Positions 24,562 to 56,166 of a stretch of DNA of 64,000 nucleotides are shown piece by piece. Origin of the DNA: a virus (Duplodnaviria > Heunggongvirae > Uroviricota > Caudoviricetes); IMG/VR virus record IMGVR_UViG_2639762987_000002, one strand, 5' to 3'. The stretch's first letter is position 1. Each line of letters starts with the position of its first letter. The notes beneath the pieces are model-generated. The model was not told where the DNA came from. It did not search any database and saw nothing but the letters and a program-made list of their open reading frames with translations. Position numbers and translations under genes: made by a program.

Positions 24562-24635
24562 GTTAATCGGTAAGTATATACTTACTGTTAGCGCAATGAA
24601 TGCGTAGAATTAACGGAAAAAGGAGTTTTCCATCA

Positions 24636-25382
24636 ATGTCTAATACCCATGTAAAAAACATCAAACTTGGTGCCTGTAAGGTGTCGTTTGGTGGTGTGGA
24701 TTTGGGTTACACCAAAGGTGGTGTTCAGGTTGAAGTAGCCACTGAAACGCTGAAAGTCACCGTCGATCAGTTGGGGCAGACCGTAATTTCCGAATTAGTT
24801 CAGGGGCGCAACATTACCATCACCGCGCCTCTGGCTGAGTCTGTACTCCAAAACATGGTTGACCTGATGCCTGGTTCTACTCTGAGCGAAGATGACAGCT
24901 CTGTCACGATCACATCTGCACAGGGCGTTAACCTGATTGATGTGGCGAAGGAGCTGGTTCTGACTCCGCAGGACACCACCGACTATGTGTTGACCATCCC
25001 GAAAGCGGCAACCGCGGGCAACTTCACTATGACCTACCAGTCTGATGATGTTCGTGTGTTCTCTGTTCAGTTCAGCGCATACCCGGATGATGAAGGCGTT
25101 CTGGGCAAAATGAGCGGTCCTAAACCGGTAAAAACCGTGTCGATCAAACCGGAATCTCCAACTGTAAAAGCAGGGGAGACTGTGCAACTGACAGCCGAAA
25201 TCACTCCAGCTGATGCCGCAGACAAAACCGGTGTTTGGGAATCCGAAGACCAGGAAAAGGCCACGGTAGATCAAACTGGTCTGGTACGTGGTGTGGCGCA
25301 GGGTTCTACAAATATCTCCTTCACCAGCAATAGCGGTGGTAAGAAGGCTACTAAGTCAGTAACGATTAACTCCGCAGGTTAA
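24636..25382 (+). CDS. major tail protein with C-terminal Ig-like domain (248 aa)
   Basis: C-terminal Big_2-like segment as in lambda gpV; position before the chaperone pair and tape measure; perfect 16-bp palindrome gtaagtatatacttac upstream. Confidence 0.65.
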   Translation: MSNTHVKNIKLGACKVSFGGVDLGYTKGGVQVEVATETLKVTVDQLGQTVISELVQGRNITITAPLAESVLQNMVDLMPGSTLSEDDSSVTITSAQGVNLIDVAKELVLTPQDTTDYVLTIPKAATAGNFTMTYQSDDVRVFSVQFSAYPDDEGVLGKMSGPKPVKTVSIKPESPTVKAGETVQLTAEITPADAADKTGVWESEDQEKATVDQTGLVRGVAQGSTNISFTSNSGGKKATKSVTINSAG

Positions 25383-25395
25383 TCAGTAATTAAGC

Positions 25396-25421
25396 AGAGG
25401 CTCAGGATGAGCCTCTCTTTT
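25396..25421 (+). terminator. Rho-independent terminator or attenuator
   Basis: Hairpin agaggctcaggatgagcctct followed by ctttt. Confidence 0.6.
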
Positions 25422-25437
25422 AAAAGGATTTTAACCA

Positions 25438-25755
25438 ATGACCAAATTACTCGATCTCGATTCCATTCTGCCTCCGAAGAAAAGCATCAAATTTGGCGGT
25501 CAGGAATATCCCATCGTTGAAATGACGGTAGGTCTGTTCGTTTCCATCAAGCAGATGGAAGGCAAAGATCTCATGAACATGTCTCCTGTTGAGCAAGTGA
25601 CAGCTTATGCAGATCTGGTTCGTAAGGTTATCCCTTCAGTACCTGACGAAGTTCTTGAAAAACTGACTGTTCCGCAACTCCAGCAGATCTTCACCTTCGC
25701 TATGGAAGTGATTGATGAAGAAAACGAAAAAGCGGCTGGCGAAGGGGCAAAGTAA
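25438..25755 (+). CDS. tail assembly chaperone (G-like, 105 aa)
   Basis: Acidic small protein immediately upstream of the tape measure gene. Confidence 0.6.
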   Translation: MTKLLDLDSILPPKKSIKFGGQEYPIVEMTVGLFVSIKQMEGKDLMNMSPVEQVTAYADLVRKVIPSVPDEVLEKLTVPQLQQIFTFAMEVIDEENEKAAGEGAK

Positions 25756-26105
25756 TTTCCCGCGATGAATCCGGGACAAGGACCGTCTCAATAGATCTCG
25801 GATTCTATTTCAGTCGTGTAGTTGCTCACTACGCCGTGTCGCCATTAGAGCTACTGAACGTTCCTCTCACGATGTTCTGGATGCTCAGTCGCAATATAGA
25901 CCGTCTGCGTGCGGAAGAGGATGTCCGCAACTTACAAGTCGCTCGTGCGTCCCAGGCGGATGGCGAGGCTGTGAAGGCGTTCATGGAGGGTTTGCAACTC
26001 AGGATTGGAAGACCAGTCGTAACAGATAAAGTCTACGATCCAAGCCAGGATAAGGCAGACCCTGACGCCAAAGAGCAACTGATGCAAATATTTGGCAGAG
26101 GATGA
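25719..26105 (+). CDS. tail assembly chaperone extension (GT-like), putatively reached by -1 frameshift
   Basis: The -1 frame is open from 25719 and overlaps the last ~35 nt of the upstream gene; the listed ORF 25836 starts with GTG and has no RBS. Confidence 0.45.
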   Translation, partial: RKRKSGWRRGKVISRDESGTRTVSIDLGFYFSRVVAHYAVSPLELLNVPLTMFWMLSRNIDRLRAEEDVRNLQVARASQADGEAVKAFMEGLQLRIGRPVVTDKVYDPSQDKADPDAKEQLMQIFGRG

Positions 26106-29100
26106 CAAGGGAATGTCACAAAACGTAGAGTTTATCCTGTCGCTGGAAGACAAACAGTTTACAGCGTCAATCGATCGTGCGGGGAAACTGCTTACTCGAT
26201 TTGGTGAGCAGGTAACAAAGCCTGCTCAAAAAATCCAAACCTTTGAACGCTCTTTGGGTTCGGTCGCCCGTATCATTGGCGTTCTGGAAAGCAAGCTCGA
26301 TTCTACGGCAGATAAACTACAGGATGTAGCTGCCGGTTTTGAGCTTGCTTCAGATGCTACGCGTAAAATGCGTGGCAACATCACCAGCCTCAATTCTGGT
26401 CTTAAAGCCCTGATTGAGCGCGTCGATACGACAACTTCTTCAGTAGATAAACTCACCGCGTCATTACGTAAAGTGCAATCAGAGCTAAATGATTTCTCTG
26501 ATTGGGCGACCTATGCAAGCAAAAGCGCAAGCCGCTTTGGTACGGAGGTCAAAGAAGCCTCTGCGTCCGTGAGTGGCATGAATACGCGCCTTAATACCAC
26601 GACGAAGCGACTCAGTAATTGGGGTGTCACAACGAGTCAGGCTGCCGAGGGACTGAAAAAGGTTCGTGAGCAGATGGACGAAGTTATCGGACGTCAGCAA
26701 CTGATTAGCAAGCCGGTACGCGTTCGTACATCTGGAAGTGGTGATGGTGGTAGCGGGCGGCGTAGCGGCGCTTCTGGCCATAGCGGTAAAAGTAACGAAG
26801 GAGGTATGTTCTCTGGCCTGCGTGGCAACATTTTCCTGCTTGGCGAGATCGGAGATGCAGCCAGAACGGTTACTGACATCATGTTTGGGTGGCAGAAGCC
26901 TATTGTTGAAGCTGCGGCCGAAATGGAACGTATGCGGGTGATGCTTCGAGGGTTGAATAAGGAGAAGTCCAACCCGGGCCAGGCTGCCGCTGATGATATG
27001 AAGTACATCGTAGACATGGCTCAAAATGCGCCGTTCGCGATGCAGGCGTTAACAGACTCCTTCGTGAAGTTTCGTTCTGCTGGCTTAGATCCAACCGATG
27101 GTTCTCTGAAGGCGCTGGTGGACTCCGTTGCTCGTTTTGGTGGTGATAGTGAGCTGTTGAAACGTGCGGCTGTGGCCGTTCAGCAGATGTCCGGTAAGGG
27201 CGTCGTGTCAATGGAAGAGCTACGTCAGCAATTAGGTGAAGCCGTTCCTAACGCGATGCAGGCAATGGCAGACGCCGCAGGCATCACTATGGGGGAACTG
27301 ACTAAAGCCGTTGCCAGCGGTACGGTTGAGGCAAAGCAGGCGTTGTCTCTGATGTTTGTTGGTCTGCGTGCGGAGAACGAGAACGCAGCGAAAGACATGA
27401 TGCAAACCTACACAGGTGCGCTGGCGCAACTTCAGACGTCATTCACGTTATTTGCTGATCGGGTTGGTCAGGCCGGATATCTGGATTCTCTATCGAAGGG
27501 GATGAAAGAACTGGCTTCAATCATGAATAGCGCCGAAGGGATTTCGTTTGCCAATTCTTTAGGTTCGGGGTTAACAACGGCAATCGATGGGTTGCGTCAG
27601 CTTGCTCAATGGTTAGCAAAGAACCAAGAGTTGGTAATTAATCTCGGTAAGGTCGTGGCCGCGATGGTTGCGTTCAAACTGATGCGAGCAGGGATCATGG
27701 GGGTAGTTGGCGCTGGGAGCCAGATGGTTAGCACCTTTGCCACGATGGCGACCGCCATACAGACTCCATTTAACCTCGGCGCTACAGCAGTAACTCGATT
27801 CAATCGTGCGGCACGTATGGGGCTGGCTCCGATCCCCTCTCTTATTTTCGCCATCCGTGGGGCGATTACGGGGCTTAAAGGCGCTTTTGCTGGATTAACG
27901 GCGTTCATTGCAGCAAACCCTATAGGGGCAGCATTTACAGTTGCCACTGTAGCTGTTGCTGGCCTAATCACGTACATGACCATGCTCCGCAGCGAAACTT
28001 CAAAGGTCGTTGACGAGATTAGGAAAATACCAGAAGCGATGACAGCGGCCAAACGTGCACAAATGGCCGACCGCGCAGAAAAGCTCGAAAAGCAGATTCT
28101 TGCTGATCAACGAGCATTAAAAACTGGTGAGGGTGTTAATTACGTATCTAACTCTGCCGGTGTTATTACTCACAAAGAGTCGAAGGCTGACATCGAAGCA
28201 CGCCTGAAAAAAAATCAGGAAGAGTATCAAAAGATAACCGGCACGATAGCTCTTGGTGACGGCGCTGTAGCAAAGCGTTTGGCTAAAGAGGCTGCCGAAT
28301 CTCAGATTGAGAAAATTCGAGCGGAAAACCAGATTTTCGCGGCAACATTCGTGAAAGCCCGGCAGGAGGCTCTGGATAAGATCCAGAAAATCAATGATGA
28401 CGGTTCACTTTCAGATGACGAAAAGAACAAGCTATTGGCACCGTTACGTGAAACGGTAAACAAAAGCTATCTGGAGCCTGCGCAAAAACTGGTTGATTCA
28501 CTTTCTTCTCGTAAGAATGCGACCGAGAAGCAAATCGCGACTCTTAATGATCAGCTTGAAAAAGCCAAAAAGGATGGCAATACCGAGCAAATCCAGAAAC
28601 TGCAAGGCAGTATTCGTGGTTATCAGGAGCATTTGGAAGCCGTTGCTCAGGAGCTGACTCAGGCAGAGTTCGAGAGAGATAACGCGGCCAAAACTGGTAA
28701 GGGCGTAATGTCAAACCAGGGGACTGTTCTTGGGTTAGGTACAACTGATAAAGCTGCTCAGAAGGCGCTGGCGCAATATATGCGAAACCAGATGGATTCT
28801 GCGACTTATCAACGTACTTTGCCTGACGGCACTCCGATGATGGACTTCGAAGGTAAGCCGATTATTGGGCCTAAACAACTCAAGACGCAGCTTAATTTGC
28901 AGAAAGCATCCAGCGCCAGCTCTCTAGAGAAAATGAGCGATGAAGAGCGTGCCGCAGCCATTGCTGCACTGACTAAAGCTCGTGAACAGGATGCAGCAGC
29001 TGCCGAGAAAGCAGCCCAACGATCAGCTAACGCCTCGCAGCGTGCGGCCAAGAAGGAACAGGCAGCGCAACAGAAACTGGCAGCCGGATACCAGAAGGCT

Positions 29101-30684
29101 CTGGACAAAGCCGATCAGCTTATGGGGCAAATGGGTGAAAGCTCTAAGGCTACGGTATCGTTTGATCAGTCTCTTCGCGATACAACGAAATCGCTGACAG
29201 ATTTGGCTAATGCGGTACCTAACGAGTTCATCACTCAAGAGATGATCGACAAGGCGAAAAAACGTCTTGAAGACCTCAAAAATGCGACACCTGAATATCG
29301 CGAGATGTTTAATCGCCGCAATGTTGAGCAGATGATCTCCACTTGGGCACCGGAGGCGGATTCCATTATTAGTGCTGGCTATACGCCGTCTCGCGAAGAG
29401 AAAGTTGCTGATTTCGAAGACACCTACAACCGCAATCTCAAAGCGTTGATAGAACTTCGTGATAAGGCGTCTGATCCTAAAGTTGTGGCGTTTTATACAA
29501 AGAAAATCAATCAACTGATTGCTGCTGGCAATACCGCGCTTATTAAAGAGACGGGGACTGCGACGCAGAAGTTGGCACTGGAATACGAAAACCTGGCAGA
29601 GCAGATCGAAAGCACTTGGACTGATTTGTTTAGTGGCTTAACTGATGTCCTGACTGATTTCGTTATTAACGGGAAGATGAGCTTCTCCAGCCTATCTCAG
29701 TCCATTTTGAAAGATATCACCAATATGGTCGTGAAGTCGCAGATCACGCTGCCTCTAATGAACATGTTGGGGATGGGAACCACCGCTGCTGGTAGTTCAC
29801 AGAGTGGTAATTTGCTGACCGGGGTTGCTTCCGCCGTTGCCAATCAAGGGGTACGAATGGGCAACACTGTTAACGGCGACAAGTCTGTAGGAGAAGCCAC
29901 GAAGGAGACGTCCAGTTCGGTAACTGGATTGGGGCAAACAACACAGCAGACCACCAGCGCAATTGGCACAGCAACAAATGCGATTGGTAGCTGGGTATCG
30001 GGGCTATTTGATAGCACCGAAGCCAAAGATGCTGAGACAAAAGCAGTGAAGGACTCCATCTTCTCGATGCAGAACCTCAGCTCTGTTACCGGCGCGCTGT
30101 CTGCCGCGTTTGCAATGCTTGGAGCTAATGCTTCCGGCTCTGGTAATAAGTGGTTGAGTTTTGGAGCAACGGTTGCATCTGGTCTTGTTTCAGCTTGGGC
30201 TGGCGGTGGATTCGATGGATTGATGTCCGGTTCTTCTGGCTCAACTTCCGGGTTCAACAATCTGACCAGTTCTGCTGCCGATGGCACGAATGGTATTCCT
30301 GCAATTCCGAAGTTTGCAAATGGTGGCATATTCGGAAAAGACGGCGTGATCCCGCTCCGGGCATACCAGAAAGGCGGTATCGCCAACTCACCTCAATTGG
30401 CGTTGTTTGGGGAAGGCGATATGAATGAGGCGTATGTTCCATTGCCTGATGGCCGAACAATCCCTGTAACGCTCAGTACCGATGGTATGAGTGGAGGCGG
30501 AAATGTTCTTTCTCCTGTATCAATTGAGATCAACGTCCATAGTGACGGTAGCACGACAGAATCCGGCGATACAGAAAGCATATGGAACAATGCCGCTCAA
30601 CGGATGAAAGCAATCGCGCTTGAGACTATCGCTCAAGAGAAACGCCCTGGCGGATCACTCAACCCAAACACTCAACGTAACTAA
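26092..30684 (+). CDS. tail tape measure protein (1530 aa)
   Basis: Very long, coiled-coil and Gly/Ala/Ser-rich hydrophobic segments, position after the chaperone pair. Confidence 0.85.
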   Translation: MAEDDKGMSQNVEFILSLEDKQFTASIDRAGKLLTRFGEQVTKPAQKIQTFERSLGSVARIIGVLESKLDSTADKLQDVAAGFELASDATRKMRGNITSLNSGLKALIERVDTTTSSVDKLTASLRKVQSELNDFSDWATYASKSASRFGTEVKEASASVSGMNTRLNTTTKRLSNWGVTTSQAAEGLKKVREQMDEVIGRQQLISKPVRVRTSGSGDGGSGRRSGASGHSGKSNEGGMFSGLRGNIFLLGEIGDAARTVTDIMFGWQKPIVEAAAEMERMRVMLRGLNKEKSNPGQAAADDMKYIVDMAQNAPFAMQALTDSFVKFRSAGLDPTDGSLKALVDSVARFGGDSELLKRAAVAVQQMSGKGVVSMEELRQQLGEAVPNAMQAMADAAGITMGELTKAVASGTVEAKQALSLMFVGLRAENENAAKDMMQTYTGALAQLQTSFTLFADRVGQAGYLDSLSKGMKELASIMNSAEGISFANSLGSGLTTAIDGLRQLAQWLAKNQELVINLGKVVAAMVAFKLMRAGIMGVVGAGSQMVSTFATMATAIQTPFNLGATAVTRFNRAARMGLAPIPSLIFAIRGAITGLKGAFAGLTAFIAANPIGAAFTVATVAVAGLITYMTMLRSETSKVVDEIRKIPEAMTAAKRAQMADRAEKLEKQILADQRALKTGEGVNYVSNSAGVITHKESKADIEARLKKNQEEYQKITGTIALGDGAVAKRLAKEAAESQIEKIRAENQIFAATFVKARQEALDKIQKINDDGSLSDDEKNKLLAPLRETVNKSYLEPAQKLVDSLSSRKNATEKQIATLNDQLEKAKKDGNTEQIQKLQGSIRGYQEHLEAVAQELTQAEFERDNAAKTGKGVMSNQGTVLGLGTTDKAAQKALAQYMRNQMDSATYQRTLPDGTPMMDFEGKPIIGPKQLKTQLNLQKASSASSLEKMSDEERAAAIAALTKAREQDAAAAEKAAQRSANASQRAAKKEQAAQQKLAAGYQKALDKADQLMGQMGESSKATVSFDQSLRDTTKSLTDLANAVPNEFITQEMIDKAKKRLEDLKNATPEYREMFNRRNVEQMISTWAPEADSIISAGYTPSREEKVADFEDTYNRNLKALIELRDKASDPKVVAFYTKKINQLIAAGNTALIKETGTATQKLALEYENLAEQIESTWTDLFSGLTDVLTDFVINGKMSFSSLSQSILKDITNMVVKSQITLPLMNMLGMGTTAAGSSQSGNLLTGVASAVANQGVRMGNTVNGDKSVGEATKETSSSVTGLGQTTQQTTSAIGTATNAIGSWVSGLFDSTEAKDAETKAVKDSIFSMQNLSSVTGALSAAFAMLGANASGSGNKWLSFGATVASGLVSAWAGGGFDGLMSGSSGSTSGFNNLTSSAADGTNGIPAIPKFANGGIFGKDGVIPLRAYQKGGIANSPQLALFGEGDMNEAYVPLPDGRTIPVTLSTDGMSGGGNVLSPVSIEINVHSDGSTTESGDTESIWNNAAQRMKAIALETIAQEKRPGGSLNPNTQRN

Positions 30685-55615: not shown

Positions 55616-55690
55616 GATGGTGTAGCTCAGCGGTAGAGCAGTTGGCTGTTAACCAACTGGTCGGTGGTTCGAATCCACCCACCATCGCCA
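55616..55690 (+). tRNA. tRNA-Asn (anticodon GTT)
   Basis: Hand-folded cloverleaf: acceptor gatggtg/caccatc, anticodon loop ctGTTaa, T-loop ttcgaat, encoded CCA. Confidence 0.85.
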
Positions 55691-55695
55691 ATTTA

Positions 55696-55782
55696 GGGGA
55701 GTTAGTCCGTAGAGGTAGCGGTGTAGACTGTAAATCTACTGTCATGGCGACTCGGGTGGTTCGACTCCATCACTCCCCACCA
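55696..55782 (+). tRNA. tRNA-Tyr (anticodon GTA), long variable arm
   Basis: Acceptor ggggagt/actcccc, anticodon stem-loop gtaga-ctGTAaa-tctac, 87 nt, encoded CCA. Confidence 0.8.
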
Positions 55783-55786
55783 AATT

Positions 55787-55862
55787 GCCGGTTTAGCTCA
55801 GTTGGTAGAGCGCCTGCCTTGTAAGCAGGATGTCAGCGGTTCGAGTCCGTTAACCGGCACCA
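55787..55862 (+). tRNA. tRNA-Thr (anticodon TGT)
   Basis: Acceptor gccggtt/aaccggc, D-arm gctcagttggtagagc, anticodon loop ctTGTaa, encoded CCA. Confidence 0.85.
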
Positions 55863-56079
55863 ACACAACAGGAAAGAGCATTGAAAACCGCCGAGACTGC
55901 CCTGTTTTAAGCGTAAGTCCGTGCAAACGTCATACAGTGCTCTTTTCGTTGTGGTTGATGCGCAGACTGATGCGCGGAAAGAAATGCCCCAGCGACACAC
56001 GAGGCGAGTTCACACACTGCAATGCAGTCAGTAGCCGGGGTCGCTAAGCCGGAGATCAGTACCGGTAACCACAACAATT

Positions 56080-56166
56080 GGAGAGTAGGGAGCATGGTGC
56101 TCAAGCGGTCTTGAAAACCGTCCCATTGTGCAAACGATGATGGTTCGATTCCATTACTCTCCGCCA
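56080..56166 (+). tRNA. tRNA-Ser (anticodon TGA), long variable arm
   Basis: Acceptor ggagagt/actctcc, anticodon loop ctTGAaa, 87 nt, encoded CCA. Confidence 0.8.

What the first reader, a model, noticed from the sequence alone, without database searches (positions are those of the whole stretch)
25719..26105. Probable programmed -1 frameshift joining the two tail assembly chaperone ORFs
The -1 frame is open from 25719, overlapping the last ~35 nt of the upstream chaperone gene, while the downstream listed ORF has only a GTG with no RBS. An A-run gaaaaag (25726-25732) lies in the overlap, but no canonical X-XXY-YYZ heptamer is present in the correct register, so the slip site would be non-canonical.
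Basis: partly seen in the sequence, partly recalled or inferred. Interest (0 to 1): 0.4.

Follow-up and report, generated by a model that had tools for sequence, protein, structure and literature searches.

The report
Unannotated tail-chaperone −1 frameshift, minimal site
This phage-plasmid almost certainly makes its second tail-assembly chaperone by letting a few ribosomes slip back one base on the last codon of the first chaperone gene. This is an ordinary trick of tailed phages, but here it uses an unusually small slip signal and is missing from every database annotation checked.

Summary
The window is an SSU5/pLF82 (Cyrano)-type phage-plasmid. It has a 105-codon G-like gene (25438-25755), then a −1-frame ORF open from 25719 to 26105, lying between the Ig-domain tail tube gene and the tape measure gene. 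The −1 ORF has no usable start: its first canonical start is GTG 25836, without a Shine-Dalgarno sequence.

Comparison of 94 distinct relatives moves the slip site. In 39 of them a −1-frame TGA leaves only 13 nt of overlap, so the A-run gaaaaag (25726-32) cannot be the conserved site. Every relative ends N_G[C/U]A_AAG_UA[A/G].

The wobble A of codon 104 (25749) is the only invariant third base among 17 four-fold-degenerate codon columns, although the amino acid itself varies between Ala and Val. The 27 start-less codons after the G stop show pN/pS of 0.19–0.32 against divergent relatives, like the rest of T.

Distant relatives carry canonical in-register heptamers at or near the same place: A_AAA_AAG_UAA, G_GGA_AAG_UAA and G_GGA_AAC_UAA.

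Verdict: a genuine lambda G/GT-type programmed −1 frameshift, on the tetramer A_AAG (25749-25752) abutting the stop codon. A downstream hairpin may assist. It is a new member of a known kind, of modest interest, and mainly an annotation fix. The fused product has not been shown experimentally.

The parts
25438..25755 (+). G-like tail assembly chaperone gene (105 codons, 11.7 kDa, pI 4.6), the zero-frame product
25749..25752 (+). Proposed slip site A_AAG: wobble A of codon 104 plus Lys codon 105. tRNA-Lys re-pairs from AAG (25750-52) to AAA (25749-51).
   Evidence: Present in 94 of 94 distinct SSU5-like loci. Codon 104's third base is the only invariant one among 17 four-fold-degenerate columns, while its amino acid varies Ala/Val. 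It is the only shift-prone motif inside the 13-nt overlap that 39 of 94 loci have. A_AA.G is the most shift-prone tetramer in E. coli (PMC4066793).
25753..25755 (+). Zero-frame stop TAA directly after the slip codon. A possible 'shifty stop' contribution.
   Evidence: TAA in 88 and TAG in 6 of 94 loci, always abutting AAG. Distant relatives L165, L172 and L174 also have their heptamer abutting the stop.
25752..26105 (+). T extension read in the −1 frame after the slip (GTA 25752-54 … TGA 26103-05). It adds 117 residues, giving a 222-aa, 24.8-kDa GT fusion.
   Evidence: Translation. PHROG 1131. pN/pS 0.19-0.32 against divergent relatives for the 27 start-less codons 25755-25835, as for the rest of T. 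AlphaFold pLDDT 90-97 for residues 1-30.
25719..25751 (+). Part of the −1 frame that is open upstream of the slip site in this window only. It is not conserved.
   Evidence: Overlap is 37 nt in 47, 13 nt in 39 and 97 nt in 8 of 94 loci.
25726..25732 (+). It holds an in-register A_AAA tetramer (25728-31), a possible minor secondary slip site in this window but not the conserved one.
   Evidence: register. The run is replaced by GAAGCCG in the L008, L009, L016 and L161 groups, and is followed by a −1-frame TGA in SSU5, pMT1 and others.
25761..25818 (+). Candidate stimulatory hairpin. Outer helix 25761-66/25813-18; inner helix 25767-74/25798-805. It starts 8 nt after the AAG.
   Evidence: RNAalifold consensus. 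91.6% of cells paired in 11 diverse relatives, against 28-54% for slid controls. Two compensatory changes. Shuffles reaching the observed value: 4/500 for pairing and 13/500 for compensatory changes. ΔG is −17.9 kcal/mol, but z is only −1.17. Suggestive only.
25836..25838 (+). GTG used as the start of the separately annotated downstream ORF. Probably not a real start.
   Evidence: No SD. The position of the first start codon varies among relatives: +26, +83, +101, +113, +116, +119 and +131 nt after the first base of the G stop codon.
26113..30684 (+). Tape measure protein gene. This is context: the expected binding partner of G and GT.
   Evidence: Pfam TMP_3, E 3.4e-30. Annotated as tape measure in Cyrano and SSU5.
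24600..25382 (+). Major tail (tube) protein with a C-terminal Big_2 Ig-like domain. This is context: the expected partner of the T domain.
   Evidence: Pfam Big_2, E 7.8e-26. PHROG major-tail-protein families.

Best explanation
Genes 25438-25755 and 25752-26105 are the G and T parts of a lambda-type tail assembly chaperone pair in an SSU5/Cyrano-like siphovirus phage-plasmid.

Most ribosomes terminate at UAA 25753-55 and release G (105 aa). A small fraction slip back one nucleotide while tRNA-Lys decodes the last sense codon. The anticodon leaves AAG (25750-52) and re-pairs with AAA (25749-51). The next codon read is then GUA (25752-54), and translation continues in the −1 frame to UGA 26103-05. 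The product is a 222-aa GT fusion (…GEGAK-VISRDESG…).

By analogy with lambda, the G part binds the tape measure protein and the T part recruits the tail tube protein. Neither ends up in the virion.

Shown here:
- the frame arrangement;
- the lack of any conserved start codon;
- purifying selection on the start-less codons;
- selection on the A_AAG motif beyond what protein coding requires;
- canonical heptamers at the homologous place in distant relatives;
- a TAC-like fold for G.

Inferred:
- that the slip really happens, and at what rate;
- whether tRNA-Lys slips in the A site (during translocation) or in the P site while the stop codon waits for a release factor;
- that the 25761-25818 hairpin stimulates the slip;
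- the binding partners.
For: 1. Synteny is tail tube (Big_2) – G – T(−1) – tape measure.

2. The 27 codons between the G stop and the first start codon have pN/pS 0.19-0.32 against relatives with pS 0.15-0.74. This equals the rest of T, and indels come in multiples of three.

3. The first canonical start in the −1 frame sits at seven different positions, never with an SD. In L008 it is 131 nt downstream of the G stop.

4. In 94 distinct loci, all end N_G[C/T]A_AAG_TA[A/G]. Only 4 of 105 third codon positions are invariant (codons 1, 4, 104, 105). Codon 104 is the only one of 17 four-fold-degenerate columns with an invariant third base, even though it switches between Ala and Val.

5. In 39 of 94 loci the −1 frame opens only 13 nt before the end of G, so the slip must occur within AGG GGC AAA G.

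6. Distant T-family members (30-50% identity) always have T in the −1 frame after a 105-125-aa G-like ORF and before a tape measure gene. Their in-register motifs are A_AAA_AAG_TAA (L165), G_GGA_AAG (L167), G_GGA_AAG_TAA (L172), G_GGA_AAC_TAA (L174), G_GGA_AAC (L166, L170), A_AAA_AAA (L169) and A_AAC_CCT (L171).

7. An exhaustive HMMER search found 226 T-family clusters. All of the 150 best hits listed are stand-alone ORFs of 30-157 aa starting abruptly inside the conserved domain. None is a long in-frame fusion or has a conserved N-terminus.

9. The T model has pLDDT 90-97 over residues 1-30, the part that has no start codon.

10. Literature: A_AA.G is by far the best −1 tetramer in E. coli, reaching 5.6% with a pseudoknot (PMC4066793). 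A_AAG sites are used by IS1222 and occur in B. subtilis cdd. Lambda G:GT is about 30:1 (PMC5009743).
Against: - No protein evidence exists. No mass-spectrometry or reporter data were found for SSU5, Cyrano, pMT1 or pHCM2.
- In E. coli reporters, A_AAG alone is barely above background (about 0.15%) without a stimulator (PMC4066793).
- The candidate hairpin is thermodynamically unremarkable (z −1.17). Its covariation support is modest and confounded by coding constraint. It is disrupted in the most divergent A_AAG-bearing relative, L164.
- UAA-U is an efficient termination context (own knowledge). This argues against long pausing at the stop.
- G and T match no Pfam, NCBIfam or PDB sequence family, so chaperone identity rests on position and a medium-confidence fold match.
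- The T fold has no named match.
Confidence: 0.8

Rival explanations
1. The slip occurs in the A-run the first reader flagged: the in-register A_AAA tetramer at 25728-31 within gaaaaag. The fusion would be …EENEK-SGWRRGKVISR….
For: The −1 frame is open from 25719 in this window and in 47 of 94 relatives. A_AAA is in register and is a weakly shift-prone tetramer in E. coli (PMC4066793).
Against: In 39 of 94 loci (SSU5, pMT1, Cronobacter and others) a −1-frame TGA lies downstream of it. In the L008, L009, L016 and L161 groups the run is GAAGCCG. The −1 peptide SGWRRGK is not conserved. A_AA.A ranks far below A_AA.G. At most this is a minor, lineage-specific extra site.
Confidence: 0.07
2. There is no recoding. 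The downstream ORF is translated on its own as a small protein, from GTG 25836 (89 aa) or from the internal ATG that PGAP uses (about 74 aa), as in current annotations.
For: This is how Cyrano, SSU5 and every RefSeq plasmid record looked at annotate it. ORFs with ATG or GTG do exist.
Against: There is no SD before any candidate start. The position of the first start varies from +26 to +131 nt after the first base of the G stop codon among relatives. The 27 upstream codons are conserved at the protein level with pN/pS about 0.2-0.3, and they are predicted with pLDDT above 90 as part of the fold. Distant relatives have canonical slippery heptamers in register.
Confidence: 0.06
3. Termination-reinitiation: ribosomes finishing G at UAA restart nearby in the −1 frame on a non-canonical codon such as AUU 25755-57. 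This would give a free T protein that includes the conserved N-terminus.
For: AUU overlaps the stop codon (UAAUU) in the window. The purine-rich GAAGGGG lies 7 nt upstream.
Against: The AUU is GUU, GUA or GAA in the TAG-ending relatives, and the purine-rich tract degenerates to GAAGAAG or GAAGACG. This rival does not explain why the wobble A25749 is invariant. It also does not explain why distant relatives carry classic slippery heptamers.
Confidence: 0.04
4. Transcriptional slippage by RNA polymerase on the A5 run produces a −1 mRNA subpopulation.
For: An A5 run exists at 25727-31. One ENA assembly (P0001) carries a 1-nt deletion there.
Against: Five A's are far below the roughly 8-9-nt homopolymers needed for productive bacterial transcriptional slippage (own knowledge; review PMC5009743). 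The run is not conserved, and it is followed by a −1-frame stop in many relatives. P0001 also has a second frame error, which is typical of assembly noise.
Confidence: 0.01

Closest known systems
Phage lambda gpG/gpGT programmed −1 frameshift, and the conserved G/GT frameshift of dsDNA tailed phages (Levin et al. 1993 and Xu et al. 2004, as cited in PMC5009743)
   Same: - Two overlapping ORFs lie between the major tail gene and the tape measure gene.
- The downstream ORF is in the −1 frame, without its own start.
- The slip is near the 3' end of G.
- The shifting tRNA is tRNA-Lys on AAG.
- G is small and acidic.
- The expected fusion is about twice the size of G.
   Different: - Lambda uses the heptamer G_GGA_AAG, where both P- and A-site tRNAs re-pair. 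Here the P-site codon is GCA or GUA and cannot re-pair, leaving only the tetramer A_AAG.
- The motif abuts the stop codon.
- There is no detectable sequence similarity to lambda G or T, or to any Pfam TAC family.
Tetranucleotide Z_ZZN −1 frameshift sites: A_AAG in IS1222 (G_CGA_AAG), B. subtilis cdd (A_CGA_AAG), and IS1/IS3-family members (PMC5009743, PMC4066793)
   Same: The minimal motif A_AAG is decoded by the single tRNA-Lys(UUU) of enterobacteria. The efficiency is low and depends on stimulators. The preceding codon is non-slippery (CGA there, GCA or GUA here).
   Different: Those cases are transposase or incidental cellular frameshifts. This one is in a phage tail chaperone, with a stop codon immediately 3' of the motif, and its stimulator is not identified with confidence.
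Distant members of the same T family with canonical sites (loci L165, L167, L172, L174 from metagenomes and genomes)
   Same: They have homologous G-like and T proteins, the same gene order, and a −1 frame. In L165, L172 and L174 the slip motif also directly abuts the stop codon.
   Different: They keep full heptamers (A_AAA_AAG, G_GGA_AAG, G_GGA_AAC). The SSU5-like clade appears to have lost the P-site half of the heptamer.
'Shifty stop' frameshifting (Weiss et al. 1987; prfB +1 at CUU_UGA), as reviewed in PMC5009743
   Same: A slippery last sense codon is followed directly by a stop codon, so termination and slippage could compete.
   Different: The classic utilised cases are +1. Here the shift is −1, and a stimulatory role for the stop codon is untested.

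Membership tests
Tail assembly chaperone G/GT programmed frameshift (lambda paradigm) | Two consecutive small ORFs located between the major tail protein gene and the tape measure gene | tested here: met
   Order is 24600-25382 (Big_2 tail protein), 25438-25755, 25719-26105, then 26113-30684 (TMP_3). Cyrano and SSU5 have the same order.
Tail assembly chaperone G/GT programmed frameshift (lambda paradigm) | The downstream ORF overlaps the 3' end of the upstream ORF in another frame and lacks its own conserved start and RBS | tested here: met
   −1 frame. Overlap is 37 nt here and 13 nt in 39 of 94 relatives. The first start codon is variable and has no SD.
Tail assembly chaperone G/GT programmed frameshift (lambda paradigm) | Canonical X_XXY_YYZ slippery heptamer in register within the overlap | tested here: not met
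   The window has no heptamer in any register, only the tetramer A_AAG. Distant homologues do have heptamers in register.
Tail assembly chaperone G/GT programmed frameshift (lambda paradigm) | The arrangement is conserved across related phages, with the extension under purifying selection | tested here: met
   94 distinct SSU5-like loci and 9 distant loci. pN/pS 0.19-0.32 against divergent relatives.
Tail assembly chaperone G/GT programmed frameshift (lambda paradigm) | The G product has the tail-assembly-chaperone fold or sequence family | tested here: inconclusive
Tail assembly chaperone G/GT programmed frameshift (lambda paradigm) | A GT fusion protein is made at a few per cent of G and is required for tail assembly | not testable with these tools
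   Needs Western blot or mass spectrometry, and genetics. No such data were found in the literature searches.
Z_ZZN tetranucleotide −1 frameshift sites (A_AAG class) | A_AAG in register with the zero frame, so that tRNA-Lys can re-pair AAG→AAA | tested here: met
   25749-25752. Invariant in 94 of 94 loci, including the synonymous wobble A.
Z_ZZN tetranucleotide −1 frameshift sites (A_AAG class) | A flanking stimulator (downstream structure 5-9 nt away, or an upstream SD-like element) | tested here: inconclusive
   A hairpin at 25761-25818 starts 8 nt downstream. It has 91.6% pairing across relatives and two compensatory changes, but z is −1.17 and coding constraint confounds the result. There is no conserved upstream SD.
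Z_ZZN tetranucleotide −1 frameshift sites (A_AAG class) | The host decodes AAA and AAG with a single tRNA-Lys(mnm5s2UUU) | not tested
   This is established for E. coli (PMC5009743). The hosts here are Enterobacterales. The window itself encodes no tRNA-Lys.
'Shifty stop' recoding | A stop codon immediately 3' of the slippery codon that raises the frameshift level | tested here: inconclusive
   Adjacency is met in 94 of 94 loci (TAA or TAG) and in L165, L172 and L174. The stimulatory effect cannot be tested computationally.

The most novel reading that the evidence does not exclude
The invariant A_AAG_UAR arrangement is a termination-coupled −1 'shifty stop'. tRNA-Lys slips in the P site while the A-site stop codon waits for a release factor. 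The G:GT ratio, and hence tail assembly, would then be set by competition between release-factor binding and Val-tRNA binding. That would make it a −1 counterpart of the prfB +1 sensor, responsive to the host's translational state. This mechanism would have allowed the SSU5 clade to dispense with the P-site half of the ancestral heptamer.
Probability: 0.15. Interest if true: 0.55.

Novelty: new member of a known kind. Interest (0 to 1): 0.3.

Why it matters
Practically, it corrects a systematic misannotation. Every record looked at (Cyrano, SSU5 and the RefSeq/GenBank plasmids examined, including Yersinia pestis pMT1, from a family of 785 matching PLSDB plasmids) lists two 'hypothetical proteins'. 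RefSeq records show a false ~125-nt intergenic gap. The correct annotation is one chaperone gene with a ribosomal-slippage isoform.

Biologically, it is a natural example of a phage chaperone frameshift that has been reduced from a heptamer to the minimal tetramer A_AAG next to a stop codon. Its canonical-heptamer cousins are available for comparison. That makes it a convenient system for asking how little signal suffices to keep a ~30:1 product ratio.

It does not change any concept.

Tried and rejected
- **Word-index protein search with the fused 222-aa sequence.** It returned only six aberrant or chimeric entries. It was useless for finding annotated fusions.
- **Sequence-family searches.** Pfam, NCBIfam and PDB sequence searches of G and T found no significant family.
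- **Structure prediction from locus translations.** I redid it with database homologues.
- **Fold search of T against BFVD.** It found only unnamed members of T's own family, so T's function rests on position alone.
- **Upstream SD-like stimulator.** GAAGGGG lies 1 nt before the motif in the window, but it degenerates in relatives, and by known spacing rules it is too close for −1 stimulation. Rejected.
- **Inner hairpin alone.** 38 of 500 shuffles reached the observed value, which is not convincing. Adding the outer helix improves this. Single-sequence folding z-scores are unremarkable.
- **ATG at 25765.** It is in the zero frame and opens only a 9-codon ORF, and it is absent in relatives. 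Rejected.
- **Literature searches.** Searches for a reported frameshift in SSU5 or Cyrano found nothing.

Full report
**What the window is.**
The 741-nt segment around the finding is 99.7-99.9% identical to Escherichia phage Cyrano (the pLF82 phage-plasmid) and CMS-2020a, and 91% identical to Salmonella phage SSU5. It has 785 matches among PLSDB plasmids, including Yersinia pestis pMT1 and plasmids of Salmonella, Klebsiella, Enterobacter and Cronobacter. The local gene order on the + strand is:
- a 260-aa tail protein with a C-terminal Big_2 Ig-like domain (24600-25382);
- a 105-codon ORF (25438-25755);
- a −1-frame ORF;
- a 1,500-aa tape measure protein (ATG 26113-30684; Pfam TMP_3, E 3.4e-30).

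Every annotated record I opened (Cyrano, SSU5 and seven plasmids) lists the two small ORFs as separate hypothetical proteins. None has a joined feature.

**Checking the observation.**
- The upstream gene is in frame 1 and ends with TAA at 25753-55.
- In the −1 frame there is a TGA at 25716-18, followed by 128 stop-free codons to TGA 26103-05. The chance of this from local composition is about 0.001.
- The first canonical start codon in that frame is GTG 25836, with no Shine-Dalgarno motif.
- gaaaaag is at 25726-32.
- No X_XXY_YYZ heptamer exists in any register.

**Is the start-less stretch really coding?**
I collected relatives from annotated plasmids, GTDB genomes, IMG/VR and metagenomes. 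This gave 94 distinct loci with a 105-codon G gene.

The peptide read in the −1 frame directly after the G stop is strongly conserved: VISR[DE]ESG..TVSID[LF]GFYFSRV[VI]A[HY]YA. Its indels come only in multiples of three.

For the 27 codons between the G stop and GTG 25836, Nei-Gojobori pN/pS against divergent relatives is 0.19-0.32, at pS 0.15-0.74. This is indistinguishable from the rest of T, which gives 0.14-0.26.

The first canonical start codon in this frame lies at seven different offsets after the first base of the G stop codon: +26, +83, +101, +113, +116, +119 and +131 nt. None has an SD. The conserved N-terminal part of T therefore cannot be reached by normal initiation.

An AlphaFold model of T, built from 34 homologues, has pLDDT 90-97 over residues 1-30. 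These form a β-hairpin and the first helix of the domain.

**Where is the slip?**
In 39 of the 94 loci (SSU5, pMT1, Cronobacter and others) a synonymous GGC→GGT change in G creates a TGA in the −1 frame. The −1 frame is then open for only 13 nt before the end of G. In other clades the A-run is replaced by GAAGCCG. The gaaaaag run therefore cannot be the conserved site.

All 94 loci end N_G[C/T]A_AAG_TA[A/G].

The telling position is 25749, the wobble base of codon 104.
- Of the 17 codon columns in G where every sequence has a four-fold-degenerate codon, 16 vary at the third base.
- Only codon 104 is invariant (A in 94 of 94), even though its amino acid changes between Ala (GCA) and Val (GTA).
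- Overall, only 4 of 105 third positions are invariant: codons 1, 4, 104 and 105.

This is selection on the nucleotide motif A_AAG, not on either protein. After a −1 re-pairing of tRNA-Lys from AAG to AAA, the next codon is GUA (Val). The result is a 222-aa, 24.8-kDa fusion …GEGAK-VISRDESG….

**Family-wide support.**
An exhaustive HMMER search with T found 226 clusters at E ≤ 1e-3. Among the 150 best hits listed, every protein is a stand-alone ORF of 30-157 aa that begins abruptly inside the conserved domain. This is the usual signature of a frameshift extension called as a gene.

I examined the genomic context of nine distant members (30-50% identity). In all nine, T is in the −1 frame behind a 105-125-aa G-like ORF and in front of a tape measure gene. 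Eight of the nine carry a classical slippery heptamer in register near, or directly abutting, the G stop:
- A_AAA_AAG_TAA (L165);
- G_GGA_AAG (L167);
- G_GGA_AAG_TAA (L172);
- G_GGA_AAC_TAA (L174);
- G_GGA_AAC (L166, L170);
- A_AAA_AAA (L169);
- A_AAC_CCT (L171).

L173 has only C_CCT.

The SSU5-like clade thus looks like a derivative in which the P-site half of the heptamer (GGA or AAA) has decayed to GCA or GUA. The A_AAG half has been retained next to the stop codon.

**Is G a tail assembly chaperone?**
There is no sequence-family match: Pfam, NCBIfam and PDB give nothing, and PHROGs 893 and 1131 are both 'unknown function'.

A medium-confidence model of G (pLDDT 72.8; β-hairpin plus four helices) gives the following matches.
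- The top BFVD hit is a protein named tail assembly chaperone (E 5.8e-4, TM 0.62). About a dozen more TACs appear among the top 40.

Together with gene position, size and acidity (pI 4.6), the assignment is reasonable. However, the fold evidence alone would not carry it. T has no named structural match.

**Mechanism and stimulators.**
According to Sharma et al. (PMC4066793):
- A_AA.G is by far the most −1-prone tetramer in E. coli;
- it reaches 5.6% with the IS3 pseudoknot;
- it is hardly above background without a stimulator.

According to the Atkins et al. review (PMC5009743):
- A_AAG preceded by a non-slippery codon is used by IS1222 and occurs in B. subtilis cdd;
- E. coli has a single tRNA-Lys, whose modified U34 favours AAA;
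- lambda needs a G:GT ratio of about 30:1.

So a few per cent is the target, and some stimulator is expected. There are two candidates.

(a) The stop codon directly 3' of the motif. This would be a 'shifty stop', with a P-site slip while the A site awaits a release factor. It recurs in L165, L172 and L174. However, UAA-U is an efficient terminator context (own knowledge).

(b) An imperfect hairpin at 25761-25818 that starts 8 nt after AAG.
- Across 11 diverse relatives, 91.6% of cells are paired, against 28-54% when the partners are slid.
- There are two compensatory changes and many G·U-compatible single changes.
- 4 of 500 shuffles reach the observed pairing, and 13 of 500 reach the observed compensatory changes.
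- Against it: both arms encode conserved peptide, ΔG is −17.9 kcal/mol with z of only −1.17, and L164 breaks the inner helix.

I regard the hairpin as suggestive only. Computation cannot decide whether tRNA-Lys slips in the A site or the P site, because the product is the same.

**Rivals.**
- *Slip on the in-register A_AAA within the A-run.* This is possible in this window as a minor extra event but is not conserved (confidence 0.07).
- *Independent initiation at GTG 25836 or the PGAP ATG.* This is contradicted by the conservation of the start-less codons (0.06).
- *Termination-reinitiation at AUU 25755.* The codon is not conserved, and this rival does not explain the invariant wobble A (0.04).
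- *Transcriptional slippage on A5.* The run is too short and not conserved (0.01).

**Verdict.**
The finding is real, and its interpretation is supported. This is the conserved tail-assembly-chaperone −1 frameshift, unannotated in every record I looked at from a large and medically visible family of phage-plasmids. The slip site moves from the A-run to A_AAG at 25749-25752.

It is a new member of a known kind. Its mildly unusual trait is a minimal tetramer abutting the stop codon.

No experimental confirmation exists. The Cyrano paper (PMC9928086) mentions neither a frameshift nor a chaperone, and the other searches returned no paper reporting one for SSU5 or Cyrano.

Noticed in passing
window 25392-25421: A terminator-like hairpin lies between the tail tube gene stop (25382) and the G start (25438). 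It has a 9-bp GC-rich stem (AGAGGCUCA/GAGCCUCU) followed by UUUU. ΔG is −15.6 kcal/mol and z is −2.69, with 2 of 200 shuffles folding as well. The consensus scan misses it by one T. It could lower transcription of G/GT and the tape measure gene relative to the abundant tube protein.
   Followed up: partly
window 55616-56166: A cluster of four tRNA genes on the + strand: Asn-GTT, Tyr-GTA, Thr-TGT and Ser-TGA. There is no tRNA-Lys, so the frameshifting tRNA is the host's.
   Followed up: no
L003-L009 (plasmid records), equivalent to window 25756-25880: RefSeq/PGAP calls the T ORF from an internal ATG (225-228 nt). This leaves a ~125-nt 'intergenic' gap that is in fact conserved coding sequence. 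The same pattern appears in the sampled records of the 785 matching PLSDB plasmids, including Y. pestis pMT1.
   Followed up: yes
protein P0001 (ENA assembly), equivalent to window 25726-25732: One metagenome assembly encodes G fused to the −1 frame at the A5 run (…EENEKSGWRRGKVISRDESG…). That implies a 1-nt deletion in gaaaaag, and it is followed by a second frame error. This is probably assembly or sequencing noise rather than biology.
   Followed up: partly
L008 (K. pneumoniae pCRKP18622-1), locus 1095-1320: In this relative an IS1B transposase gene sits where the tape measure gene should begin, so the tail module of that phage-plasmid is probably inactivated.
   Followed up: no
window 25765-25794: There is a short zero-frame ORF (ATG 25765, 9 codons, TAG at 25792-94) just after the G stop. 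The ATG is absent in divergent relatives (GCGAAG), so it is probably meaningless.
   Followed up: partly
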